Made by a program: the position numbers and the translations under genes. A stretch of 64,000 nt of DNA from Escherichia phage Es2, in sequence record OR515477.1; one strand, given 5' to 3'. This document shows, piece by piece, positions 3,962-36,084 of this stretch (within the stretch, counting starts at the first letter, position 1; every line of letters begins with the position of its first letter). The notes under the pieces are model-generated. The model made no database searches. It was not told the DNA's origin and saw nothing but the letters and a program-made list of their open reading frames with translations.

Positions 3962-4222
3962 CTACACATCTAGCTCAACAATCCCCCAATCATCCGCTAG
4001 AGCTTCGTCTAGGGTTAATTCAACCTCTTCATCACTAGGCAGCAGCGTAGTATCTGGAGGCATCCACACGTATTGACGTACAGTATTGCTGTCTACGTCA
4101 AATTTCAATAGTACAGTATATTCTTTATTATTTTCCCAGCTATCCCGCTGGAGATATTTTACGTCTCCAGCTTTAAGTAAATCAGTTAGTTTACTCACGG
4201 CGTTTTCCTTTTTCTTTATCAA
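3962..4222 (-). CDS. hypothetical acidic protein
   Basis: Six-frame ORF, 86 aa. Confidence 0.45.
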   Translation of the reverse strand: MIKKKENAVSKLTDLLKAGDVKYLQRDSWENNKEYTVLLKFDVDSNTVRQYVWMPPDTTLLPSDEEVELTLDEALADDWGIVELDV

Positions 4223-4895
4223 GTTTCAGGGCAGCCTTAACAGCTTCGTTAATCAACGTAATAACTTCTTCACGAGTCCACTTGTACCCCAGTGATTTTA
4301 CGTCAACTCCTAACTTTTCCAGGTGTTTAACAGAAGCCAGCTCATAATTCATATAATGAACGTTCTGTTGTTTGCCTTCCGATAGAAGCCATACGCGGTA
4401 ACAACCAACAGGGTTATCCATTGCTTTTTTGATTTCACCGATACACTGGTATCCAGGAACCCAGACAAGTTCTCCAACCTCAAATTCTTCTGCTACAGCA
4501 TCATCAGGAATAATTGGTGGATTCAATGGATCTACAATATCATTCAAACGAAGCAGAGCGCCATAGCGCTCCAGAACAGATTTAACCATTGCTACAGAGC
4601 GATAATTACGATCAGCAATCTCCTCAAAGGAATCACCAGATAGATACTGTTCAATAACGTTGGCTAACTCGATGCCTTCAATGAGTGTGCCACGTTTCTT
4701 TTTCTTCATTTCGGCAACTTGAATCTGGCGGTCTTGCCATTCCTCAATCATCCTTTCCATAGTTGGATTGGATGATACGCCGAGCATTTCACATGCTGCT
4801 TTCTTAGTACCACCGTTCTCCAGGTGCTCTATAACCTTTTTAAAGACTTCATCTGGGATTTCATGAATGTGTTTCTTTCTGCGAGAACCAGCCAT
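4191..4895 (-). CDS. putative HTH DNA-binding protein
   Basis: 234 aa; N-terminal HTH-like segment (GGTKKAACEMLGVSSNPTMERMIEEW); sits directly downstream of a PN25-like promoter. Confidence 0.5.
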   Translation of the reverse strand: MAGSRRKKHIHEIPDEVFKKVIEHLENGGTKKAACEMLGVSSNPTMERMIEEWQDRQIQVAEMKKKKRGTLIEGIELANVIEQYLSGDSFEEIADRNYRSVAMVKSVLERYGALLRLNDIVDPLNPPIIPDDAVAEEFEVGELVWVPGYQCIGEIKKAMDNPVGCYRVWLLSEGKQQNVHYMNYELASVKHLEKLGVDVKSLGYKWTREEVITLINEAVKAALKLDKEKGKRRE

Positions 4896-26853: not shown

Positions 26854-26925
26854 GCCGTCCTAGTATAATTGGTATTATCAAGCCGTAACTGGTGGAAGAT
26901 GTAGGTTCGAATCCTACGGTCGGTA
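26854..26925 (+). tRNA. tRNA-like (isotype undetermined)
   Basis: T-arm GTAGG-TTCGAAT-CCTAC and acceptor GCCGTCC/GGTCGGT, but no clean anticodon arm. Confidence 0.35.
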
Positions 26926-29215: not shown

Positions 29216-29290
29216 GGTTCTCAAGCTCATATGGTATGAGCACCCGGCTCATAACCGGAAGGTACGTAGGTTCGAATCCTCGGGGAGCCA
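29216..29290 (+). tRNA. tRNA-Met/Ile2 (anticodon CAT)
   Basis: Acceptor GGTTCTC/GGGAGCC, anticodon loop CTCATAA, TTCGAAT T-loop (T-stem imperfect), CCA encoded. Confidence 0.6.
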
Positions 29291-30911: not shown

Positions 30912-31457
30912 ATGCACAATAAGTTAATAAATGAACTTCAAAAAAGACAAATAATAACAAAAACTAAGGAGTTTGATATAACTCCGGATTTAATAGTTGA
31001 ATGTTCGAAAGTTTACTTAGAGTTAAGTAACACAAAGGCTAAGAAAGTCTCTTTAGGAGATCTTAGATATAATGTTAAACTATTGTGCCTATCCTTAATT
31101 AAATTTAAGCAAGAAAATAAACTTCTCATAAAAGAAGGTTTCATATATTTTATAGCAAATAAGGCGTGGCCCAATTATTTTAAGATTGGTATGTCAGCTA
31201 ACCCAAAGAAACGTCTGGCTAACTATCAAACATATAGTCCTTTTAGGGATTATACAATGCTACACTGGTCTTTCTGGTTTGACAGAAAGGAAGGTGAAAA
31301 ATTTGTACATAGTCTCTACCAAGACAGAGATCATGAATGGGTTAGGCTGCCACAAAGAAAACTAAATAAAATATTTGAGCAAATAAATAAACTTTCTGGC
31401 CTAGAACACTTGGTACAGAAAGTTAATAGAGAAATAGTTAATGCACCTATCGTCTAA
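30912..31457 (+). CDS. GIY-YIG-like (T5orf172-type) domain protein
   Basis: FIYFIANKAWPNYFKIGMSANPKKRLANYQTYSP resembles the GIY-YIG/T5orf172 fold; 3' end overlaps tRNA-Glu. Confidence 0.5.
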   Translation: MHNKLINELQKRQIITKTKEFDITPDLIVECSKVYLELSNTKAKKVSLGDLRYNVKLLCLSLIKFKQENKLLIKEGFIYFIANKAWPNYFKIGMSANPKKRLANYQTYSPFRDYTMLHWSFWFDRKEGEKFVHSLYQDRDHEWVRLPQRKLNKIFEQINKLSGLEHLVQKVNREIVNAPIV

Positions 31458-32495: not shown

Positions 32496-32501
32496 CCAAT
32501 T

Positions 32502-32640
32502 TGCTGAAAGAATTGTTAAATCAATTCAGGCACGCGTAGGAACACTGTCTCCGTAATTGAAAGATGAGGCACGGTTTGGAGAGGTATGCCGCTACACGCT
32601 ACGGTGCTAACTCCGTCTAGGTGAAAATCCTAGTCAGCAA
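32502..32640 (+). ncRNA. long tRNA-like element (~139 nt)
   Basis: 7 bp acceptor-like pairing TTGCTGA/TCAGCAA, D-arm-like hairpin GAATTG-TTAAAT-CAATTC, T-arm-like CTAGG-TGAAAAT-CCTAG; no ORF. Confidence 0.35.
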
Positions 32641-32650
32641 TATAAATTTA

Positions 32651-32730
32651 GGGTCGTTAGCCAAGCGGTTTGGCGGTGGACTGTTAATCCATGTCGAAAG
32701 ACAACGTAGGTTCGAATCCTACACGGCCCG
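32651..32730 (+). tRNA. tRNA-Asn (anticodon GTT)
   Basis: Acceptor GGGTCGT/ACGGCCC, anticodon loop CTGTTAA, extended variable region, T-arm GTAGG-TTCGAAT-CCTAC, CCA encoded. Confidence 0.65.
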
Positions 32731-32835
32731 CCAAATTCTGTGTAGAGTTAAGTAAACCGGTAGCCAACCAGCTATCATTGCTGATATCGAATTCAGCCAC
32801 AGATACCATTTTCATTAATAACTGAGGAAACAAGC

Positions 32836-33021
32836 ATGTCCAAGAATGTAATTGCACAGCTAGAAGTTCATCGTGATAACACAGCTAATAACATTAAGTG
32901 CCGACAAAAAGATATTGAAGCTCGAAAGGCTGATCTTTTAATGAGTATTCGAGAGCTTAATGTACGGAAAGAGTTTCTTAAAGAACTTAATGCAGCTATT
33001 GAAAAACTCAAAGTTGAGTAA
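32836..33021 (+). CDS. hypothetical protein
   Basis: 61 aa ORF, coiled-coil-like. Confidence 0.4.
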   Translation: MSKNVIAQLEVHRDNTANNIKCRQKDIEARKADLLMSIRELNVRKEFLKELNAAIEKLKVE

Positions 33022-33030
33022 ATAAATTAT

Positions 33031-33104
33031 GCGACCGGGGCTGGCTTGGTAATGGTACTCCCCTGTCACGGGAGGGAATGTGGGTTCAAATCCCATCGGT
33101 CGCG
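33031..33104 (+). tRNA. tRNA-Asp (anticodon GTC)
   Basis: Acceptor GCGACCG/CGGTCGC, anticodon stem-loop CTCCC-CTGTCAC-GGGAG, T-arm GTGGG-TTCAAAT-CCCAT, CCA encoded. Confidence 0.75.
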
Positions 33105-33132
33105 CCAAATTAATTTAGTATGAGAATATACT

Positions 33133-33480
33133 ATGCGTAATGCTAAAGAAGAGTTGTTACTTGCCTTAAAAAATACTAATTCTGAAGTTAAATGTATTAA
33201 AATAGAATTCGGGTATTATGGGGATAAAAAAGTTTGGGTATTACCTTTAGGTTATACAGAAAAAGATATTGAGGATTTTCTTAATAATCTAGACTTTAAG
33301 TACGATTCTGGGTATGGTGGGCAATTACTTTATGGTAATGTATGGTTTGCCGACGGAACTTGGCTAGAACGTGGGGAATACGATGGTGCTGAGTGGTGGG
33401 AGTACAAAGCTACCCCGGAAATTCCAGAGGAATGCCGAACAATTAATGGTGAAGTAGATAATACTTTACTATTAAACTAA
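33133..33480 (+). CDS. hypothetical protein
   Basis: 115 aa ORF. Confidence 0.5.
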   Translation: MRNAKEELLLALKNTNSEVKCIKIEFGYYGDKKVWVLPLGYTEKDIEDFLNNLDFKYDSGYGGQLLYGNVWFADGTWLERGEYDGAEWWEYKATPEIPEECRTINGEVDNTLLLN

Positions 33481-33602
33481 AAGAATTTCAGTGCAGAACA
33501 CGGAGCTAGCAATTCGGAAGTGCTGACTCATGATAAGCTGCCTATGTACTTGCTAAGCGGTCGTGTCCAAGACTCGGACTCTTGCACTGAAAACAATCAA
33601 AC

Positions 33603-33723
33603 ATTCTAGCGTGGTTGATGGGGAAACCAGCTTGGCTAGGGCAGAAGCTCGTTCGATTCGAGTGAAAGAATGGTTCTCGTAAGTCCGCACAAGTGATAGC
33701 AGGTTCGAGTCCTGTCTAGAATG
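33603..33723 (+). ncRNA. long tRNA-like element (~121 nt)
   Basis: Perfect 7 bp acceptor pairing ATTCTAG/CTAGAAT, T-arm GCAGG-TTCGAGT-CCTGT, internal second T-arm-like GCTCG-TTCGATT-CGAGT; too long for a canonical tRNA. Confidence 0.4.
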
Positions 33724-33731
33724 ACACTATA

Positions 33732-33859
33732 AAGTTTACTTATTATGTAGGTTCCGATAGATCGGCGGGTCTATTCTGGCATTTAAGAGAAGTCTCGCAA
33801 ACTTCTTTGTCAGCCGTGGGGTTGGTAGCCTCCAGGTGGCCTACACAATAAGTAAATTT
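33732..33859 (+). ncRNA. long hairpin element (20 bp stem enclosing ~88 nt)
   Basis: AAGTTTACTTATTATGTAGG (33732-33751) pairs with CCTACACAATAAGTAAATTT (33840-33859); sub-hairpins inside; no ORF. Confidence 0.4.
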
Positions 33860-33872
33860 ATTAAAAATTCAT

Positions 33873-33901
33873 TTGCTATTTTTCTTAATTATCTGTATAA
33901 T
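33873..33901 (+). promoter_or_regulatory. early-type sigma70 promoter
   Basis: AAAAATTCATTTGCTA, 17 bp, TGTATAAT. Confidence 0.6.
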
Positions 33902-33933
33902 ATATTTTATAAAGTGAAGAGAAGGAAAGCAAA

Positions 33934-34092
33934 ATGAAACACAAGATAGCCCAAGTTTTTATGGCATTATGGTGTATGCCAATAGCTATAACAGCATTTA
34001 ATCTAGATACTTTTACTATAGAAGAAAAATGTATCGGATTAGTTAGCGGCTTTAGTATGCTTGGCTTATCTTTGTTGTGGTTGAAGAAATAA
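33934..34092 (+). CDS. small hydrophobic protein
   Basis: 52 aa ORF MKHKIAQVFMALWCMPIAITAF... after promoter 33873-33901; below track cutoff. Confidence 0.4.
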   Translation: MKHKIAQVFMALWCMPIAITAFNLDTFTIEEKCIGLVSGFSMLGLSLLWLKK

Positions 34093-34096
34093 TATT

Positions 34097-34171
34097 CTCC
34101 GTGTAGCTCAGTTTGGCCAGAGCGTTTCGTTTGGGGCGATAGGGTCGGGGGTTCAAATCCTCCCACGGAGA
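34097..34171 (+). tRNA. tRNA-Pro (anticodon TGG)
   Basis: Acceptor CTCCGTG/CACGGAG, D-arm GCTC..GAGC, anticodon loop TTTGGGG, T-arm GGGGG-TTCAAAT-CCTCC, CCA encoded. Confidence 0.7.
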
Positions 34172-34180
34172 CCAAACAAT

Positions 34181-34255
34181 TGCGGGTTAGATCTCTGGTA
34201 GAGATCGCTAGTCTCATAAGCTAGAAAGAGGTAGGTTCGATTCCTGCACCCGCTT
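34181..34255 (+). tRNA. tRNA-Met/Ile2 (anticodon CAT)
   Basis: Acceptor TGCGGGT/ACCCGCT (1-72 mismatch), anticodon stem-loop CTAGT-CTCATAA-GCTAG, T-arm GTAGG-TTCGATT-CCTGC, CCA encoded. Confidence 0.65.
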
Positions 34256-34278
34256 CCATTTTAATAGAGGATTTCGAA

Positions 34279-34446
34279 ATGAAAGTATTTCGATTAGTAG
34301 TAAGTGACAAACGGTTAGGTAAGAATACATCAAAATCCCTACTCGCTCATTACGGTAAAAATTGGGATGAAGTAATGGCAGAGTTTAGTACTAATCACCC
34401 TTACTTGAAAGTTCACTCTATTAAAGAAGTATATAATGGTTACTAA
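34279..34446 (+). CDS. hypothetical small protein
   Basis: 55 aa ORF with GAGGA RBS between tRNAs; below track cutoff. Confidence 0.4.
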   Translation: MKVFRLVVSDKRLGKNTSKSLLAHYGKNWDEVMAEFSTNHPYLKVHSIKEVYNGY

Positions 34447-34447
34447 T

Positions 34448-34523
34448 AGATCGCTAGCTCAATAGGTTTAGTAGCATCCGACTTTTAATCGGAAGGTTCT
34501 GGGTTCGAGTCCCAGGCGATCTA
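34448..34523 (+). tRNA. tRNA-Lys (anticodon TTT)
   Basis: Acceptor AGATCGC/GCGATCT, anticodon stem-loop TCCGA-CTTTTAA-TCGGA, T-arm CTGGG-TTCGAGT-CCCAG, CCA encoded. Confidence 0.75.
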
Positions 34524-34530
34524 CCAAATT

Positions 34531-34601
34531 GCTCGGTTAGTTTAATGGGAGAACCCCGTCTTTACACGGCGGTTGAGATAGTTCAATTCTATCACCGAGT
34601 A
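34531..34601 (+). tRNA. tRNA-Val (anticodon TAC)
   Basis: Acceptor GCTCGGT/ACCGAGT, anticodon loop TTTACAC, T-arm GATAG-TTCAATT-CTATC, CCA encoded. Confidence 0.7.
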
Positions 34602-34623
34602 CCAATTAACTCAAAATAAGGAA

Positions 34624-34983
34624 TTGCAAATGCAATTATCAAGCAAGATTCAAGGTTATTTCGGTCATGTAACAATGGAGTTCGCTATCTCTAAAGGTTG
34701 GGACTTCGAACAAGATTTAGCTGAGTTCTACAAAGATATTGATCTGAACGTACCGTACATGGGACTTTCTACTGGTCAGGAGATCACAGAAGCCGATGTA
34801 TTCAAGGCAAGTCAAGGTGAGGTAACACCTAGTTTTGCCGAGTTCTGGTTAGGCATTACGTTAAAAGAAGATGCACCAGATAGTGGTGTACTAATGTCTA
34901 GTATGCACTCTGGAAGTTCCGATTACCTTTTCATTAGCGATGTTAAGGAAATACAAGAAGTCTGCAAAAATGTACTTGCTTGA
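34624..34983 (+). CDS. hypothetical protein
   Basis: 119 aa ORF with AAGGA RBS. Confidence 0.5.
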   Translation: MQMQLSSKIQGYFGHVTMEFAISKGWDFEQDLAEFYKDIDLNVPYMGLSTGQEITEADVFKASQGEVTPSFAEFWLGITLKEDAPDSGVLMSSMHSGSSDYLFISDVKEIQEVCKNVLA

Positions 34984-35004
34984 TGCTTAATTTCTTGTTA
35001 TAAT
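34976..35004 (+). promoter_or_regulatory. early-type sigma70 promoter
   Basis: TTGCTT, 17 bp, TATAAT; followed by hairpin GATGAGGA-GAAA-TCCTCATC. Confidence 0.55.
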
Positions 35005-35242
35005 ATTTATATAAATTGATGAGGAGAAATCCTCATCATAGTTCACTAAGGTATTAGCTCGACCTAGGACTGGCTGCCAAAAAGCACGATCCCTACGATT
35101 CGGGAAAAGTTCTAGATTGGTCCACTAGATTCAGCGGCAACTGAATAGTGTATTGGGTTTGCGAGATGACGTAGTTCCTTCCGCTCTAAGCGAAGGTGCT
35201 GTAGTTACGCCGAGCTAATAGCCTTAGTAAACTAAAGAATTT

Positions 35243-35318
35243 GGGGAATGGGTCTGCATGGAGTGGACACCTCGCTTGCACCGAGGACATCAGAACGGTT
35301 CGATTCCGTTATTCTCCA
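35243..35318 (+). tRNA. tRNA-Ala (anticodon TGC)
   Basis: Acceptor GGGGAAT/ATTCTCC, anticodon stem-loop CCTCG-CTTGCAC-CGAGG, T-arm AACGG-TTCGATT-CCGTT, CCA encoded. Confidence 0.7.
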
Positions 35319-35326
35319 CCAAATAC

Positions 35327-35400
35327 GCGTGATTGATGGAATGGGCATACATACCGTCCTTAGAAGTCGGGTTTTGAGGGTTCGAATCCCTTGTCACGCA
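35327..35400 (+). tRNA. tRNA with anticodon TAG (Leu-decoding; class I architecture)
   Basis: Acceptor GCGTGAT/GTCACGC, anticodon loop CTTAGAA, short variable arm, T-arm GAGGG-TTCGAAT-CCCTT, CCA encoded. Confidence 0.55.
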
Positions 35401-35515
35401 CCAAATTTGATGGTCAGAGTAAATTAAACCTACTATCTCGGTTGAGCTGTTTTAATGGGTTCGAATCCCAGCGGGGCGTAACTGCCTGGTGTGATAGAGG
35501 CATCATCTTATTATT

Positions 35516-35603
35516 GGAAGAGCAAATCGAATTGGCGACGAAAACCGCTTGGAAAGTGGCTGACTGGTAAAACGGCTTGAGAGTTCAAATCTCTCCTCTT
35601 CCG
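35516..35603 (+). tRNA. tRNA-Ser (anticodon GGA)
   Basis: Acceptor GGAAGAG/CTCTTCC, anticodon loop TTGGAAA, 18 nt variable arm, T-arm GAGAG-TTCAAAT-CTCTC, CCA encoded. Confidence 0.7.
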
Positions 35604-35618
35604 CCAAACAATTTATAT

Positions 35619-35710
35619 GGTAGGTCAATCCAATGGCTGGCGCTGGACTCCGACTTGAAATCGGTTGATCGTAGTGATACGGTGTAAGGGTTCGATCCCC
35701 TTACCTACCT
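35619..35710 (+). tRNA. tRNA-Ser (anticodon TGA)
   Basis: Acceptor GGTAGGT/ACCTACC, anticodon loop CTTGAAA, 20 nt variable arm, T-arm AAGGG-TTCGATC-CCCTT, CCA encoded. Confidence 0.7.
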
Positions 35711-35716
35711 CCAAAT

Positions 35717-35850
35717 CTTGAAGTATGCCGGAATCGGTAGACGGGGCTGCCTAAAAGGTTTATAGGGAACATCCACTCCCTGCAACATACCTCATAAAGC
35801 GGCTGAGATAAATGGTCTATCTCGTGAAGGTTCAAGTCCTTCTGCTTCTT
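35717..35850 (+). ncRNA. long tRNA-like element (~134 nt)
   Basis: Acceptor-like pairing TGAAGTA/TGCTTCT (6 of 7), T-arm GAAGG-TTCAAGT-CCTTC, internal D-arm-like hairpins; no CCA, no ORF. Confidence 0.35.
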
Positions 35851-35964
35851 GATACATCTATGGCTCAAAGTGTAACGGTGCTATTTGATGCTCTTGGTAA
35901 GACTTCCCCGACATGCGTTCGGGAGTAAGCTGCTAAGACTAGAGTAGAAGAGTTTCTGAGAGCC

Positions 35965-36084
35965 GCCACAATTGAAAATTCGTACTCGTCTTGAGCTGCG
36001 CGCAATAGGAGATAACTTGATTAGTATTCTAGAACATGCTAATTGAGGAAGGTTTCGCTAACCCTGCGAGTTTTCAATTGTGGC
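35965..36084 (+). ncRNA. long hairpin element (18 bp stem enclosing ~85 nt) abutting tRNA-His
   Basis: GCCACAATTGAAAATTCG (35965-35982) pairs with CGAGTTTTCAATTGTGGC (36067-36084); the 3' arm overlaps the tRNA-His acceptor. Confidence 0.4.

What the first reader, a model, noticed from the sequence alone, without database searches (positions are those of the whole stretch)
32502..35850. Family of long tRNA-like elements (120-140 nt) interspersed among canonical tRNAs
Three ORF-free elements (32502-32640, 33603-33723, 35717-35850) each pair a 7 bp acceptor-like helix with a T-arm-like hairpin but span 120-140 nt, with extra hairpins in place of normal D and anticodon arms; 33603-33723 even contains two T-arms. 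They could be stable phage small RNAs, tRNAs with insertions, or decayed tRNAs retained as processing signals. T5-type phages are reported to make stable small RNAs of unknown function, and these are candidates.
Basis: seen in the sequence. Interest (0 to 1): 0.6.

Follow-up and report, generated by a model that had tools for sequence, protein, structure and literature searches.

The report
tRNA-scaffolded small RNAs in T5-like phage
The three elements are real, conserved, non-coding RNAs built on a tRNA frame; two are the already-annotated "tRNA-like stable RNAs" RNA2 and RNA1 of phage T5, the third is an unannotated relative in kind, and one of them belongs to a family found in very different phages, but what any of them does is still unknown.

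Summary
The window is the tRNA cluster of a T5-like phage. All three elements are there, within 0-2 nt of the stated coordinates. E2 (33603-33723) is the orthologue of T5 RNA2 (96.8% identity). E3 (35719-35850) is the orthologue of T5 RNA1 (84.8%). The T5 RefSeq record annotates both as "tRNA-like stable RNA with unknown functions". E1 (32501-32641) has no T5 counterpart; T5 carries a CDS at that site. It occurs in 219 phage records, where it is left unannotated or, in a few records, placed under a hypothetical protein, and in Mydovirus tRNA clusters.

They are three separate families, not one. Compensatory base changes support each fold. E3 is a tRNA-Leu-like frame whose anticodon loop is replaced by an extended arm with an invariant apical loop. 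E2 carries a second T-loop hairpin and an invariant core. Its family also occurs in T4-like Acinetobacter phages and in 86-363 kb viral contigs, always co-oriented with tRNAs, and it is absent from Rfam.

None of the three has an anticodon loop or an encoded CCA, whereas all 26 tRNAs in the window encode CCA. Best reading: these are non-decoding RNAs that use a tRNA scaffold for excision and stability and display a conserved payload. The target of that payload is unknown.

The parts
32501..32641 (+). E1: 141-nt tRNA-framed element between tRNA-Cys and tRNA-Asn. It has no T5 counterpart and is not annotated as an RNA in any public record seen.
   Evidence: Model R3 scores it 176.5 bits. It occurs in 219 phage records. 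Homologues lie in Mydovirus tRNA clusters.
32501..32507 (+). E1 acceptor-like helix, 5' strand (pairs with 32634-32640). The discriminator-position base is U at 32641, with no CCA after it.
   Evidence: 4 of 7 pairs change on both sides. CCA check.
32510..32527 (+). E1 D-like hairpin (6 bp, loop UUAAAU, no GG).
   Evidence: 5 of 6 pairs change on both sides: GAAUUG/CAAUUC, AGGUUA/UAACCU, GAUGU/ACAUC.
32546..32571 (+). E1 middle hairpin (UGUCUC/GAGGCA; GCCAC/GUGGC in Sugarland-like phages; UCCCCA/UGGGGA in Mydovirus).
   Evidence: 82.8% paired; 2 pairs change on both sides.
32578..32604 (+). E1 core GGAGAGGUAUGCCGCUACACGCUACGG, nearly identical between Demerecviridae and Mydovirus (24 of 27 positions invariant; its 3' two-thirds, GCCGCUACACGCUACGG, almost invariant). 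Its pairing is unresolved.
   Evidence: Alignment A5, invariant columns.
32617..32633 (+). E1 T-arm-like hairpin with the non-canonical loop UGAAAAU.
   Evidence: 100% paired; A-U to U-A swap in Mydovirus.
33603..33723 (+). E2: orthologue of T5 RNA2 (rna2, T5s06) and member of a family found across diverse phages.
   Evidence: 96.8% identity to T5 RNA2 over 125 nt, mapping to window 33602-33726. Model R1 scores it 121 bits. Covariation.
33612..33629 (+). E2 D arm (UGGUU / GAUGGGGA / AACCA) with the GG dinucleotide.
   Evidence: Helix 2: 5 of 5 pairs change on both sides.
33630..33694 (+). E2 central domain that replaces the anticodon arm. It consists of P3 (33630-33634 / 33690-33694), P4 GGGC/GUCC (33639-33642 / 33683-33686), the inner T-loop hairpin P5 (33647-33663, loop UUCGAUU) and the near-invariant core UGAAAGAAUGGUUCUCGUAA (33663-33682).
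   Evidence: P3: 5 of 5 pairs covary. P4 pair 44-92 is U-A in 15 sequences, C-G in 14 and other in 8. P5: 4 of 5 pairs covary. The core is conserved as far as T4-like and jumbo-size contigs.
33699..33715 (+). E2 canonical T arm (GCAGG / UUCGAGU / CCUGU). It is followed by the acceptor 3' strand 33716-33722 and discriminator G at 33723, with no CCA.
35719..35850 (+). E3: orthologue of T5 RNA1 (rna1, T5s03), a class-II tRNA-Leu-like frame with an extended arm in place of the anticodon loop.
   Evidence: 84.8% identity to T5 RNA1, mapping to window 35717-35861. Model R2 scores it 159.8 bits, and the next-best hits are tRNA-Leu genes. Rfam tRNA model 25.2 bits. ARAGORN -i calls it.
35728..35744 (+). 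E3 D arm (CCG / GAAUCGGUAGA / CGG), preceded by U8 G9.
   Evidence: Invariant in 23 sequences. It matches the D arm of the tRNA model.
35746..35803 (+). E3 anticodon-like stem (35746-35750 / 35799-35803) carrying a 48-nt extension with two further helices and the apical loop ACAUCCAC (35769-35776; six of the eight positions invariant, two varying in single sequences).
   Evidence: Helix 3: 2 pairs change on both sides. Helix 4: 1. Helix 5: 4. The loop stays nearly constant.
35805..35823 (+). E3 variable-arm hairpin (GAGAUA / AAUGGUC / UAUCUC).
   Evidence: 100% paired, with an A-U to U-A swap in 5 sequences.
35826..35842 (+). E3 canonical T arm (GAAGG / UUCAAGU / CCUUC). It is followed by the acceptor 3' strand 35843-35849 and discriminator U at 35850, with no CCA.

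Best explanation
E1, E2 and E3 are three unrelated, non-decoding small RNAs, each built on a tRNA scaffold.

How they are made (inferred). They are transcribed with the surrounding tRNAs and small ORFs from the phage's tRNA-cluster promoters. Each keeps the coaxial acceptor/T-arm stack. E2 and E3 also keep the D-loop/T-loop elbow. The host tRNA-processing machinery should therefore excise them like tRNAs: RNase P at the 5' end, and endo- and exonucleases at the 3' end. The compact tRNA-like fold would then make them metabolically stable, which fits the label 'stable RNAs' in the T5 annotation.

What they cannot do (shown). The anticodon arm has been replaced by a family-specific module:
- E1: a branched domain with an invariant GC-rich core.
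- E2: a stem carrying a second T-loop hairpin plus a D-loop-like AAUGGU / CGUAA core.
- E3: a long arm ending in a nearly invariant ACAUCCAC loop.
They have no anticodon loop and no encoded CCA, and their acceptor and discriminator sequences vary. They are therefore not adaptors in translation.

What they do (inferred). The scaffold serves as a delivery and stability device, and the conserved module is the functional payload. My preferred, weakly held guess (about 0.25) is that they act as tRNA mimics that occupy or divert a host factor that reads tRNA shape. Candidates are a tRNA-directed defence nuclease, RNase P, a T-loop modification enzyme or a ribosomal tRNA-elbow site. E2 would present two elbow-like surfaces.
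For: Identity:
- The T5 RefSeq record annotates rna2 and rna1 as tRNA-like stable RNAs at syntenic sites.
- blastn maps them to E2 (96.8%) and E3 (84.8%).

Real structured RNAs:
- E2 family: 93.1% of cells paired, 25 of 30 pairs with compensatory change, covariation score 0.761 against 0.192 in shuffles and at most 0.124 with slid partners. RNAalifold recovers all six helices on its own.
- E3: 95.7% paired, 12 compensated pairs against 1-2 in slid controls, on a purely sequence-based alignment.
- E1: 95.7% paired, 12 of 28 pairs compensated.

tRNA frame:
- Model R1 cross-hits ordinary tRNAs at 36 bits or less. R2's next-best hits are annotated tRNA-Leu genes at 38-46 bits.
- The Rfam tRNA model aligns E3 end to end.

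Co-transcription context:
- In 23 of 25 loci, E2-family elements lie among tRNAs, always on the same strand as every tRNA there. Nine have a tRNA 10 nt or less away.

Not decoding:
- All 26 tRNAs in the window encode CCA. E1, E2 and E3 do not.
- The would-be anticodon loop of E3 differs between the window and T5 (CUAAAAG against CGAAUAG).

The payload is under selection:
- The E2 core is invariant from T5-likes to T4-like Acinetobacter phage 133 and to 86-363 kb contigs, while all stems covary.
- The E3 apical loop is nearly invariant while its stem covaries.
- The E1 core is nearly identical between Demerecviridae and Vequintavirinae.

Not coding:
- No frame is stop-free across members.
Against: - No expression, processing or stability data were examined here. 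'Stable RNA' rests on the wording of the T5 record, whose experimental basis for RNA1 and RNA2 I could not read.
- E1 is dispensable. It is absent from T5, VAH1 and My1, replaced by a CDS in T5, and half-deleted in L037.
- The T4-like subfamily of E2 lacks a convincing acceptor helix, so the scaffold is not universally required.
- No recurrent partner protein is encoded nearby.
- No complementary target for the E3 loop was found in the window.
- The decoy function is conjecture.
- Alignments A3 and A6 were fitted to the models and so lean towards the structures. E1 rests on only three clades.
Confidence: 0.7

Rival explanations
1. They are decayed tRNA genes with no function of their own in trans. 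They are kept only because their acceptor/T-arm frames give RNase P cleavage sites that punctuate the polycistronic tRNA/ORF transcripts.
For: - They sit in tRNA clusters between tRNAs and small ORFs.
- E1 is accessory and is replaced or truncated in some phages.
- E3 clearly derives from a tRNA-Leu-type gene.
Against: The most conserved parts are the inserted modules, not the processing frame.
- The E2 core and inner T loop are invariant across phage families, while the acceptor sequence varies freely and is even lost in the T4-like subfamily.
- The E3 apical loop is nearly invariant over a covarying stem.
- The E1 core is nearly identical in Demerecviridae and Mydovirus.
A mere cleavage signal would not need 50-70 nt of conserved insert.
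Confidence: 0.13
2. They are trans-acting base-pairing regulators. The conserved single-stranded loops, for example ACAUCCAC in E3, pair with a host or phage RNA, and the tRNA frame only provides stability.
For: - The 8-nt apical loop sits on a covarying stem and hardly varies, which is the classic look of a seed region.
- It is compatible with the scaffold-plus-payload model.
Against: - No complementary site above chance in the 64-kb window: 1 match, which is the element itself, against 0.8 expected.
- Host targets could not be screened.
- The conserved core of E2 looks like a folded tertiary module (T loop plus a D-loop-like sequence) rather than an open seed.
Confidence: 0.12
3. They are functional tRNAs interrupted by introns or insertions, which are spliced or tolerated, and they decode codons.
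For:
- One GenBank record annotates it as tRNA-Phe (H135).
Against: - The putative anticodon loop is not conserved (CUAAAAG in the window, CGAAUAG in T5).
- The 'intron' is itself the most conserved and structured part.
- There is no encoded CCA, unlike all 26 tRNAs of the cluster.
- From general knowledge, bacterial tRNA introns are group I or II introns of more than 200 nt, and no splicing endonuclease exists in these hosts.
- E1 and E2 appear as 'tRNAs' only at very relaxed thresholds, with different arbitrary anticodons.
- All three score below Rfam's tRNA threshold.
Confidence: 0.03
4. They are (parts of) small protein-coding genes, as several GenBank records annotate.
For: - Mechanical ORFs of 27-55 aa overlap them.
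- 'Hypothetical protein' features lie over them in some records.
Against: - No reading frame is free of stops across family members: E1 0/11 in all six frames, E2 at best 17/37, E3 at best 9/23.
- Substitutions follow base-pairing, not codon, constraints.
Confidence: 0.02

Closest known systems
Phage T5 RNA2 (gene rna2, locus tag T5s06, NC_005859 32959-33083), annotated 'tRNA-like stable RNA with unknown functions'
   Same: E2 is its orthologue. Identity is 96.8% over 125 nt. The position is the same, between the T5.067-type CDS and RNAIV. The helices are the same.
   Different: Only a few substitutions. The record gives no structure or function. The wider family described here (T4-like Acinetobacter phages, large uncultivated viral contigs) is not annotated anywhere I could see and is not in Rfam.
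Phage T5 RNA1 (gene rna1, T5s03, NC_005859 30501-30644), annotated 'tRNA-like stable RNA with unknown functions'
   Same: E3 is its orthologue. Identity is 84.8%. The position is the same, immediately upstream of RNAI, RNAIII and tRNA-His.
   Different: About 15% divergence, much of it as compensatory stem changes. The T5 feature extends about 11 nt further 3' than the tRNA-like fold.
Phage T4 RNA C and RNA D (species 1 and 2 RNAs; 139 and 119 nt)
   Same: They are small stable RNAs of unknown function encoded at the end of a phage tRNA cluster, of similar size to E1-E3. RNA C ends in a T-arm-like hairpin. The literature still calls their roles unknown (PMC3014915; PMC12685909).
   Different: No detectable homology. 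Models R1, R2 and R3 hit only the true tRNAs, or nothing, in the T4 locus L005.
Canonical tRNA (Rfam RF00005), in particular class-II tRNA-Leu for E3
   Same: All three have an acceptor-type terminal helix stacked on a T-arm-type hairpin. E2 and E3 also have U8, a D arm with GG and a canonical T loop. E3 has a long variable arm, and its model's best non-self hits are tRNA-Leu genes.
   Different: No 7-nt anticodon loop. No encoded CCA. Scores are below Rfam's gathering threshold (25.2, 16.6 and no hit). The D and T loops of E1 are non-canonical.
Other tRNA mimics that lack an anticodon: the tmRNA tRNA-like domain, bacterial Y-RNA-like YrlA, and mascRNA (from general knowledge)
   Same: The concept is the same: a tRNA-shaped module recruits tRNA-processing or tRNA-binding factors while another part of the RNA carries the function.
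   Different: No tag ORF or pseudoknots; ARAGORN's tmRNA search at default settings finds none. No match to the corresponding Rfam families even with permissive filters. The ends here form a true acceptor-type helix, not a Ro-binding stem.
Engineered 'tRNA scaffold' RNAs, in which a recombinant RNA is inserted in the anticodon stem of a tRNA for stable expression in E. coli (Ponchon and Dardel approach; from my own knowledge, not checked here)
   Same: The architecture and presumed logic are the same. The payload replaces the anticodon loop, and the tRNA frame gives correct processing and nuclease resistance.
   Different: The elements here are natural, phage-encoded and evolutionarily conserved. 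That they behave like the engineered scaffolds is inferred, not shown.

Membership tests
Canonical tRNA (RF00005) | Score at or above Rfam's gathering threshold (29 bits) | tested here: not met
   E3 25.2 bits, E2 16.6 bits (partial), E1 no hit. No hit at the gathering threshold.
Canonical tRNA (RF00005) | 5-bp anticodon stem closed by a 7-nt anticodon loop | tested here: not met
   E3 has the 5-bp stem, but it continues into a 48-nt extension. E2 has a 5-bp stem leading to a branched domain. E1 has no recognisable equivalent.
Canonical tRNA (RF00005) | 7-bp acceptor helix stacked on a 5-bp T stem with a 7-nt loop | tested here: met
   E1 7 bp, E2 7 bp, E3 6 bp plus a UxU mismatch. T stems are 5 bp and 98-100% paired across each family's alignment.
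Canonical tRNA (RF00005) | Elbow nucleotides: G18 G19 in the D loop and UUCRAnY in the T loop | tested here: met
   Met for E2 and E3. Not met for E1: D-like loop UUAAAU, T-like loop UGAAAAU.
Canonical tRNA of this phage's cluster | Genomically encoded 3' CCA | tested here: not met
   All 26 tRNAs in the window have it. E1, E2 and E3 do not.
T5 RNA2 family (E2) | Sequence homology and synteny with T5 rna2 | tested here: met
   96.8% identity over 125 nt, same neighbours. R1 scores: 121 bits for the window, 121.3 bits for T5.
T5 RNA1 family (E3) | Sequence homology and synteny with T5 rna1 | tested here: met
   84.8% identity over 145 nt, followed by RNAI, RNAIII and tRNA-His as in T5. R2 scores: 159.8 and 152 bits.
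T5-type 'stable RNAs' | Accumulates as a discrete, long-lived RNA in infected cells | not testable with these tools
   This rests only on the wording of the T5 RefSeq annotation. No transcript data were available.
T4 RNA C / RNA D | Detectable sequence/structure homology to T4 rnaC or rnaD | tested here: not met
   R1, R2 and R3 searches of the T4 locus L005 return only genuine tRNAs, or nothing.
Intron-containing tRNA | Conserved anticodon and flanking loop nucleotides, with an excisable intron | tested here: not met
   The loop is CUAAAAG in the window and CGAAUAG in T5. The 'intron' is the conserved, structured part. Splicing itself is not testable here.
tmRNA | tRNA-like domain plus a tag-peptide ORF and pseudoknots | tested here: not met
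   ARAGORN at default finds no tmRNA. Only spurious calls appear at a 70% threshold. No meaningful tmRNA hit in Rfam: only two far-sub-threshold fragments (11.7 and 14.1 bits) at 35294-35484, outside the elements, and none in the per-element scans.

The most novel reading that the evidence does not exclude
The RNA2/E2 family is a phage-restricted class of structured RNA found across many phage groups and absent from Rfam. It would be a 'double-elbow' tRNA mimic. Its conserved inner T-loop hairpin plus D-loop-like AAUGGU/CGUAA core would form a second tRNA-elbow-like surface at the anticodon end. With it the RNA would capture or block a universal reader of tRNA shape, such as a tRNA-directed defence nuclease, RNase P, a T-loop modification enzyme or the ribosomal L1-stalk/E-site. 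That would make it a new kind of viral RNA effector, with E1 and E3 as lineage-specific analogues carrying other payloads.
Probability: 0.2. Interest if true: 0.8.

Novelty: new member of a known kind. Interest (0 to 1): 0.5.

Why it matters
The small stable RNAs of T5 and T4 have been known for decades, and no function has been assigned to them.

This analysis does not solve that problem, but it makes it sharper and testable.
- It separates scaffold from payload.
- It gives covariation-supported secondary structures.
- It shows that the payloads are what selection preserves.
- It shows that one family (RNA2/E2) is not a T5 oddity. It is shared by T5-like, T4-like and very large phages, which points to a target common to many hosts.

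It also has a practical use. These loci are currently left blank, or are mis-annotated as hypothetical proteins or as tRNA-Phe, in hundreds of phage genomes. The three covariance models could fix that and could seed Rfam families.

If the decoy idea holds, these would be RNA-based counter-defence or host-takeover factors that ride on the tRNA-processing pathway.

Tried and rejected
- Single homologous family: rejected. Each covariance model finds only its own family, plus tRNAs at low score for R1 and R2.
- Known Rfam family: none, even with permissive per-element scans.
- Homology with T4 RNA C/D: none. A shared GGUUGAGAUA 10-mer between T5 RNA1 and T4 rnaC, and 7-8-mers shared with E. coli RNase P RNA, were judged to be at chance level by rough estimate and were not pursued.
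- Host-genome origin of E2: a scan of 185,579 species' genomes gave 54 pattern hits. All are coding or chance matches except two large phage-like contigs.
- Distant E1 and E3 relatives: the degenerate patterns GGTANACGGN{15,45}ACATCCNCT and GCGTAGGN{35,65}CCGCTAC saturated with chance matches. None of the 70 loci from each scan that were searched with R2 or R3 was confirmed. The pattern CTNGGTGAAAATCCNAG gave only marginal hits of 23 bits or less.
- Partner protein by neighbourhood: only NUMOD3 homing endonucleases recur.
- Target of the E3 loop within the window: none beyond chance.
- Hammerhead and 11-nt tetraloop-receptor resemblances in the E2 core: considered by eye and not convincing.
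- Thermodynamic stability as evidence: z-scores are weak, so I did not rely on them.
- Literature: six full-text searches found no functional study of the T5 stable RNAs or of an E2-like family.

Full report
CONTEXT. The window is the tRNA gene cluster of a T5-like phage (Demerecviridae, Tequintavirus type). ARAGORN finds 23 tRNAs and Rfam 24, all on the + strand. The 3.7-kb stretch that holds the finding is 93-98% identical to many Escherichia and Salmonella T5-like phages. The T5 reference record NC_005859 annotates, among its tRNAs, several misc_RNA features. These include rna1 and rna2, both 'tRNA-like stable RNA with unknown functions', and rna3, 'putative tRNA-like RNA'. It also annotates RNAI, RNAIII, RNAIV, RNA2H and RNAX as 'stable RNA with unknown functions'.

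OBSERVATION. All three elements are present.
- E1 has a perfect 7-bp terminal helix and, directly before its 3' strand, a 5-bp hairpin with a 7-nt loop.
- E2 has a 7-bp terminal helix and two T-arm-type hairpins.
- E3 has 6 bp plus a conserved terminal UxU mismatch, and a canonical T arm.
- Default ARAGORN and Rfam at gathering thresholds call none of them.
- With introns allowed, ARAGORN calls E3 'tRNA-Phe(aaa) with a 41-nt intron' at default stringency. E1 and E2 appear only at a 70% threshold, with arbitrary anticodons.
- With permissive filters, Rfam's tRNA model aligns E3 end to end at 25.2 bits (threshold 29), with a 45-nt insertion in the anticodon loop and a long variable arm. It aligns E2 only partially (16.6 bits) and E1 not at all.
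- Single-sequence folding energies are not unusual (z = -1.8, -0.2, -1.9), so the case rests on comparative evidence.

IDENTITY. blastn of the T5 features against the window gives these placements:
- RNA2 maps to 33602-33726 (96.8% identity), which is E2.
- RNA1 maps to 35717-35861 (84.8%), which is E3.
- RNA3, RNAIV, RNA2H, RNAI and RNAIII map to their syntenic positions.

E2 and E3 are therefore orthologues of already-annotated T5 RNAs. E1 has no T5 counterpart. Between tRNA-Cys and tRNA-Asn, T5 and VAH1 carry a 519-nt CDS (T5.069) instead.

E1 is nevertheless widespread. It occurs in 219 phage records, mostly at 95% identity or more, and in the listed records it is nearly always unannotated. 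E2 occurs in 475 records and E3 in 492. Some records place 'hypothetical protein' or 'tRNA-Phe' features over these elements.

THREE FAMILIES, NOT ONE. I built a covariance model for each element (R1 for E2, R2 for E3, R3 for E1).
- R1 gives a clean bimodal result over 87 phage loci. There is one hit of 63-124 bits per phage that has the element, then ordinary tRNAs at 36 bits or less. E1, E3 and T4 rnaC/rnaD do not appear among the listed hits.
- R2 finds E3 only in T5-like and Sugarlandvirus loci (131-160 bits). Its next-best hits, at 38-46 bits and about 82 nt, include the annotated tRNA-Leu genes of Mydovirus, T5 and Sugarlandvirus. This marks E3 as a derivative of a class-II tRNA-Leu frame.
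- R3 finds E1 only in window-type T5-likes, Sugarland-like phages and Mydovirus (Vequintavirinae). There it sits in a 144-nt gap between two tRNA-Ser genes. R3 does not cross-hit tRNAs.

STRUCTURES.

E3 (alignment A4: 23 distinct sequences, aligned by MAFFT and not fitted to any structure). In order along the RNA:
- Acceptor helix, then U8 and G9.
- A 3-bp D stem with the loop GAAUCGGUAGA.
- A 5-bp anticodon-type stem.
- In place of the anticodon loop, a 5/6-nt internal loop, a 4-bp helix, another internal loop, and a 6-bp apical stem closed by the 8-nt loop ACAUCCAC, which varies at only two positions, each in a single sequence.
- A 6-bp variable-arm hairpin (loop AAUGGUC).
- A canonical T arm, then discriminator U.

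95.7% of cells are paired. 12 pairs show changes on both sides, against 1-2 when the partners are slid by 1-3 columns. Covariation is 0.291 against 0.125 in shuffles.

E2 (alignment A3: 37 distinct members, fitted to the model). Its parts are:
- P1, the acceptor helix.
- P2, a D stem with a GG-containing loop.
- P3, a central 5-bp stem.
- P4, GGGY/RUCC.
- P5, a 4-5-bp hairpin with the invariant loop UUCGAUU.
- A conserved joining strand, UGAAAG-(A/U)AUGGU-nn-CGUAA.
- P6, the T arm.

93.1% of cells are paired. 25 of 30 pairs change on both sides. Covariation is 0.761, against 0.192 in shuffles and at most 0.124 with slid partners. RNAalifold recovers all six helices independently.

E1 (alignment A6: 11 sequences from three clades, fitted to the model). 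The acceptor helix, a 6-bp D-like hairpin, a middle hairpin, a variable hairpin and a T-like arm are 95.7% paired. 12 of 28 pairs are compensated, against 1-2 in slid controls. The pairing of its invariant core (GCGUAGG ... GGAGAGGUAUGCCGCUACACGCUACGG) cannot be resolved, because it does not vary.

No reading frame is open across the members of any family.

DISTRIBUTION OF THE E2 FAMILY.
- A blastn hit of E2 to the T4-like Acinetobacter phage 133, in the gap between tRNA-Gly and tRNA-Cys, was the first sign of a wider range.
- IMG/VR scans with the core pattern then found full-architecture members in contigs of 86, 101, 104-122, 155, 164, 167, 204, 310, 359 and 363 kb, as well as in shorter ones.
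- The same pattern run on one genome for each of 185,579 bacterial and archaeal species returned 54 matches. All are coding or chance sequence except two large phage-like contigs. The family therefore looks phage-restricted.
- In 23 of 25 diverse loci the element lies among tRNAs, and every tRNA in the locus is on its strand (for example 36/36, 25/25, 24/24). In nine loci a tRNA lies 10 nt or less away.
- A T4-like subfamily (Acj133, L023, L135) keeps P3-P6 but lacks a convincing acceptor helix.
- Named isolates with the element are mostly T5-likes, Acinetobacter T4-likes and Paraglaciecola Antarctic GD virus 1.
- No partner protein recurs next to it. The only shared neighbours are NUMOD3 homing endonucleases.

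WHAT THEY ARE NOT.
- Not decoding tRNAs. They have no 7-nt anticodon loop. The would-be loop of E3 is CUAAAAG in the window and CGAAUAG in T5. All 26 true tRNAs in the window encode CCA, and the three elements do not. Acceptor and discriminator sequences vary freely within the E2 family.
- Not tmRNA, and not any other Rfam family.
- Not homologues of T4 RNA C/D, although they are analogous in size, context and obscurity. The reviews I could read still call the roles of the T4 RNAs unknown (PMC3014915; PMC12685909).

HOW THEY MOST LIKELY WORK.

Shown:
- Each has a conserved tRNA-type frame.
- Each has a conserved, structured insert in place of the anticodon loop.
- They are co-oriented with tRNAs and closely spaced among them.
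- They lack the features needed for decoding.

Inferred from established knowledge of bacterial tRNA maturation: a coaxial acceptor/T-arm stack with an elbow is what RNase P and the 3'-end processing enzymes recognise. These RNAs should therefore be cut out of the polycistronic transcripts like tRNAs, and should resist decay. This would explain why T5's versions are labelled 'stable RNAs'. The design matches engineered tRNA scaffolds used to express recombinant RNAs (my own knowledge).

The insert is invariant while every stem around it covaries, so the insert is the functional payload.

Its target is unknown. My preferred guess (about 0.25) is tRNA mimicry aimed at a host factor that reads tRNA shape. 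In E2, the inner T-loop hairpin and the D-loop-like AAUGGU segment could form a second elbow. All these positions are invariant, so covariation cannot test that.

Alternatives are listed separately with their odds: base-pairing through the E3 loop, mere transcript punctuation, an intron-containing tRNA, and protein coding.

NOVELTY AND VERDICT. E2 and E3 are already known as entities (T5 RNA2 and RNA1), so this is largely a rediscovery. Three things appear to be new, as far as the databases and searchable literature show:
- E1, a third, accessory RNA of the same kind, shared with Mydovirus.
- Covariation-backed structures for all three elements.
- The finding that the RNA2 family extends well beyond T5-like phages and is absent from Rfam.

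Function remains open.

CAVEATS.
- No expression data were examined.
- Alignments A3 and A6 were fitted to their models.
- E-values from the models are rough.
- Collection scans find only exact matches to the patterns used.
- I could not read the experimental basis of the T5 annotation.

Noticed in passing
window 32736-32808: Homologue (98.6% identity) of T5 RNA3, 'putative tRNA-like RNA', directly after tRNA-Asn. Unlike E1-E3 it ends in A-CCA. It folds better than shuffles (z = -3.2). Neither ARAGORN nor Rfam calls it.
   Followed up: partly
window 33745-33847, 35052-35223, 35862-35968, 35973-36078: Homologues of T5 RNAIV (99%), RNA2H (96%), RNAI (92%) and RNAIII (98%). These are further 'stable RNAs with unknown functions' that are not tRNA-like. 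RNAIV directly follows E2. RNAI and RNAIII directly follow E3.
   Followed up: no
window 35516-35606 and 35619-35713: Two class-II tRNA-Ser genes (GGA and UGA, both with CCA). Default ARAGORN and Rfam at gathering thresholds miss them; they score only as weak 'tRNA-Sec' hits of 19.7 and 37.6 bits. They are called at a relaxed threshold and are annotated in T5.
   Followed up: partly
window 29216-29290 and 26854-26925: Rfam tRNA hits (40.3 and 35.5 bits) that ARAGORN does not call. The first is at the position of T5 tRNA-Ile2(CAU). The second lies where, by synteny with T5, the homologue of the 719-nt 'RNAX' stable RNA upstream of tRNA-Arg should be (the mapping itself was not checked).
   Followed up: no
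window 35404-35515: A stretch of about 110 nt between tRNA-Leu(UAG) and tRNA-Ser(GGA) containing a T-arm-like remnant (GGGTTCGAATCCC). T5 carries the hegC HNH homing-endonuclease gene at this position.
   Followed up: no
window 32499-32650 compared with T5 record 34006-34524; window 31089-31301; locus L037 924-1064: The E1 site is polymorphic. T5 and VAH1 have a 519-nt CDS (T5.069) there instead of E1. The window holds a paralogue of that CDS, 70% identical, elsewhere. One T5-like contig has the 5' half of E1 replaced by an ORF start.
   Followed up: partly
GenBank records under hits H56, H76, H85, H107, H110, H111, H124, H135, H161 and others: Public phage records place 'hypothetical protein' CDS features, or in JLBYU43 a 'tRNA-Phe', over E1, E2 or E3. 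These are probably mis-annotations.
   Followed up: partly
L384 about 4184-4254 (- strand): In an unrelated viral contig's tRNA cluster, a 66-nt mini tRNA-like element directly follows tRNA-Gly. It has a 7-bp acceptor (GCGGAAA/UUUCCGC) and a T-like arm with the same unusual UGAAAAU loop as E1.
   Followed up: no
L003 2464-2568 (Acinetobacter phage 133), L023, L135: A T4-like subfamily of the E2/RNA2 family keeps the central domain and T arm but has no convincing acceptor helix. In phage 133 only 4 nt separate its T arm from G1 of tRNA-Cys.
   Followed up: partly
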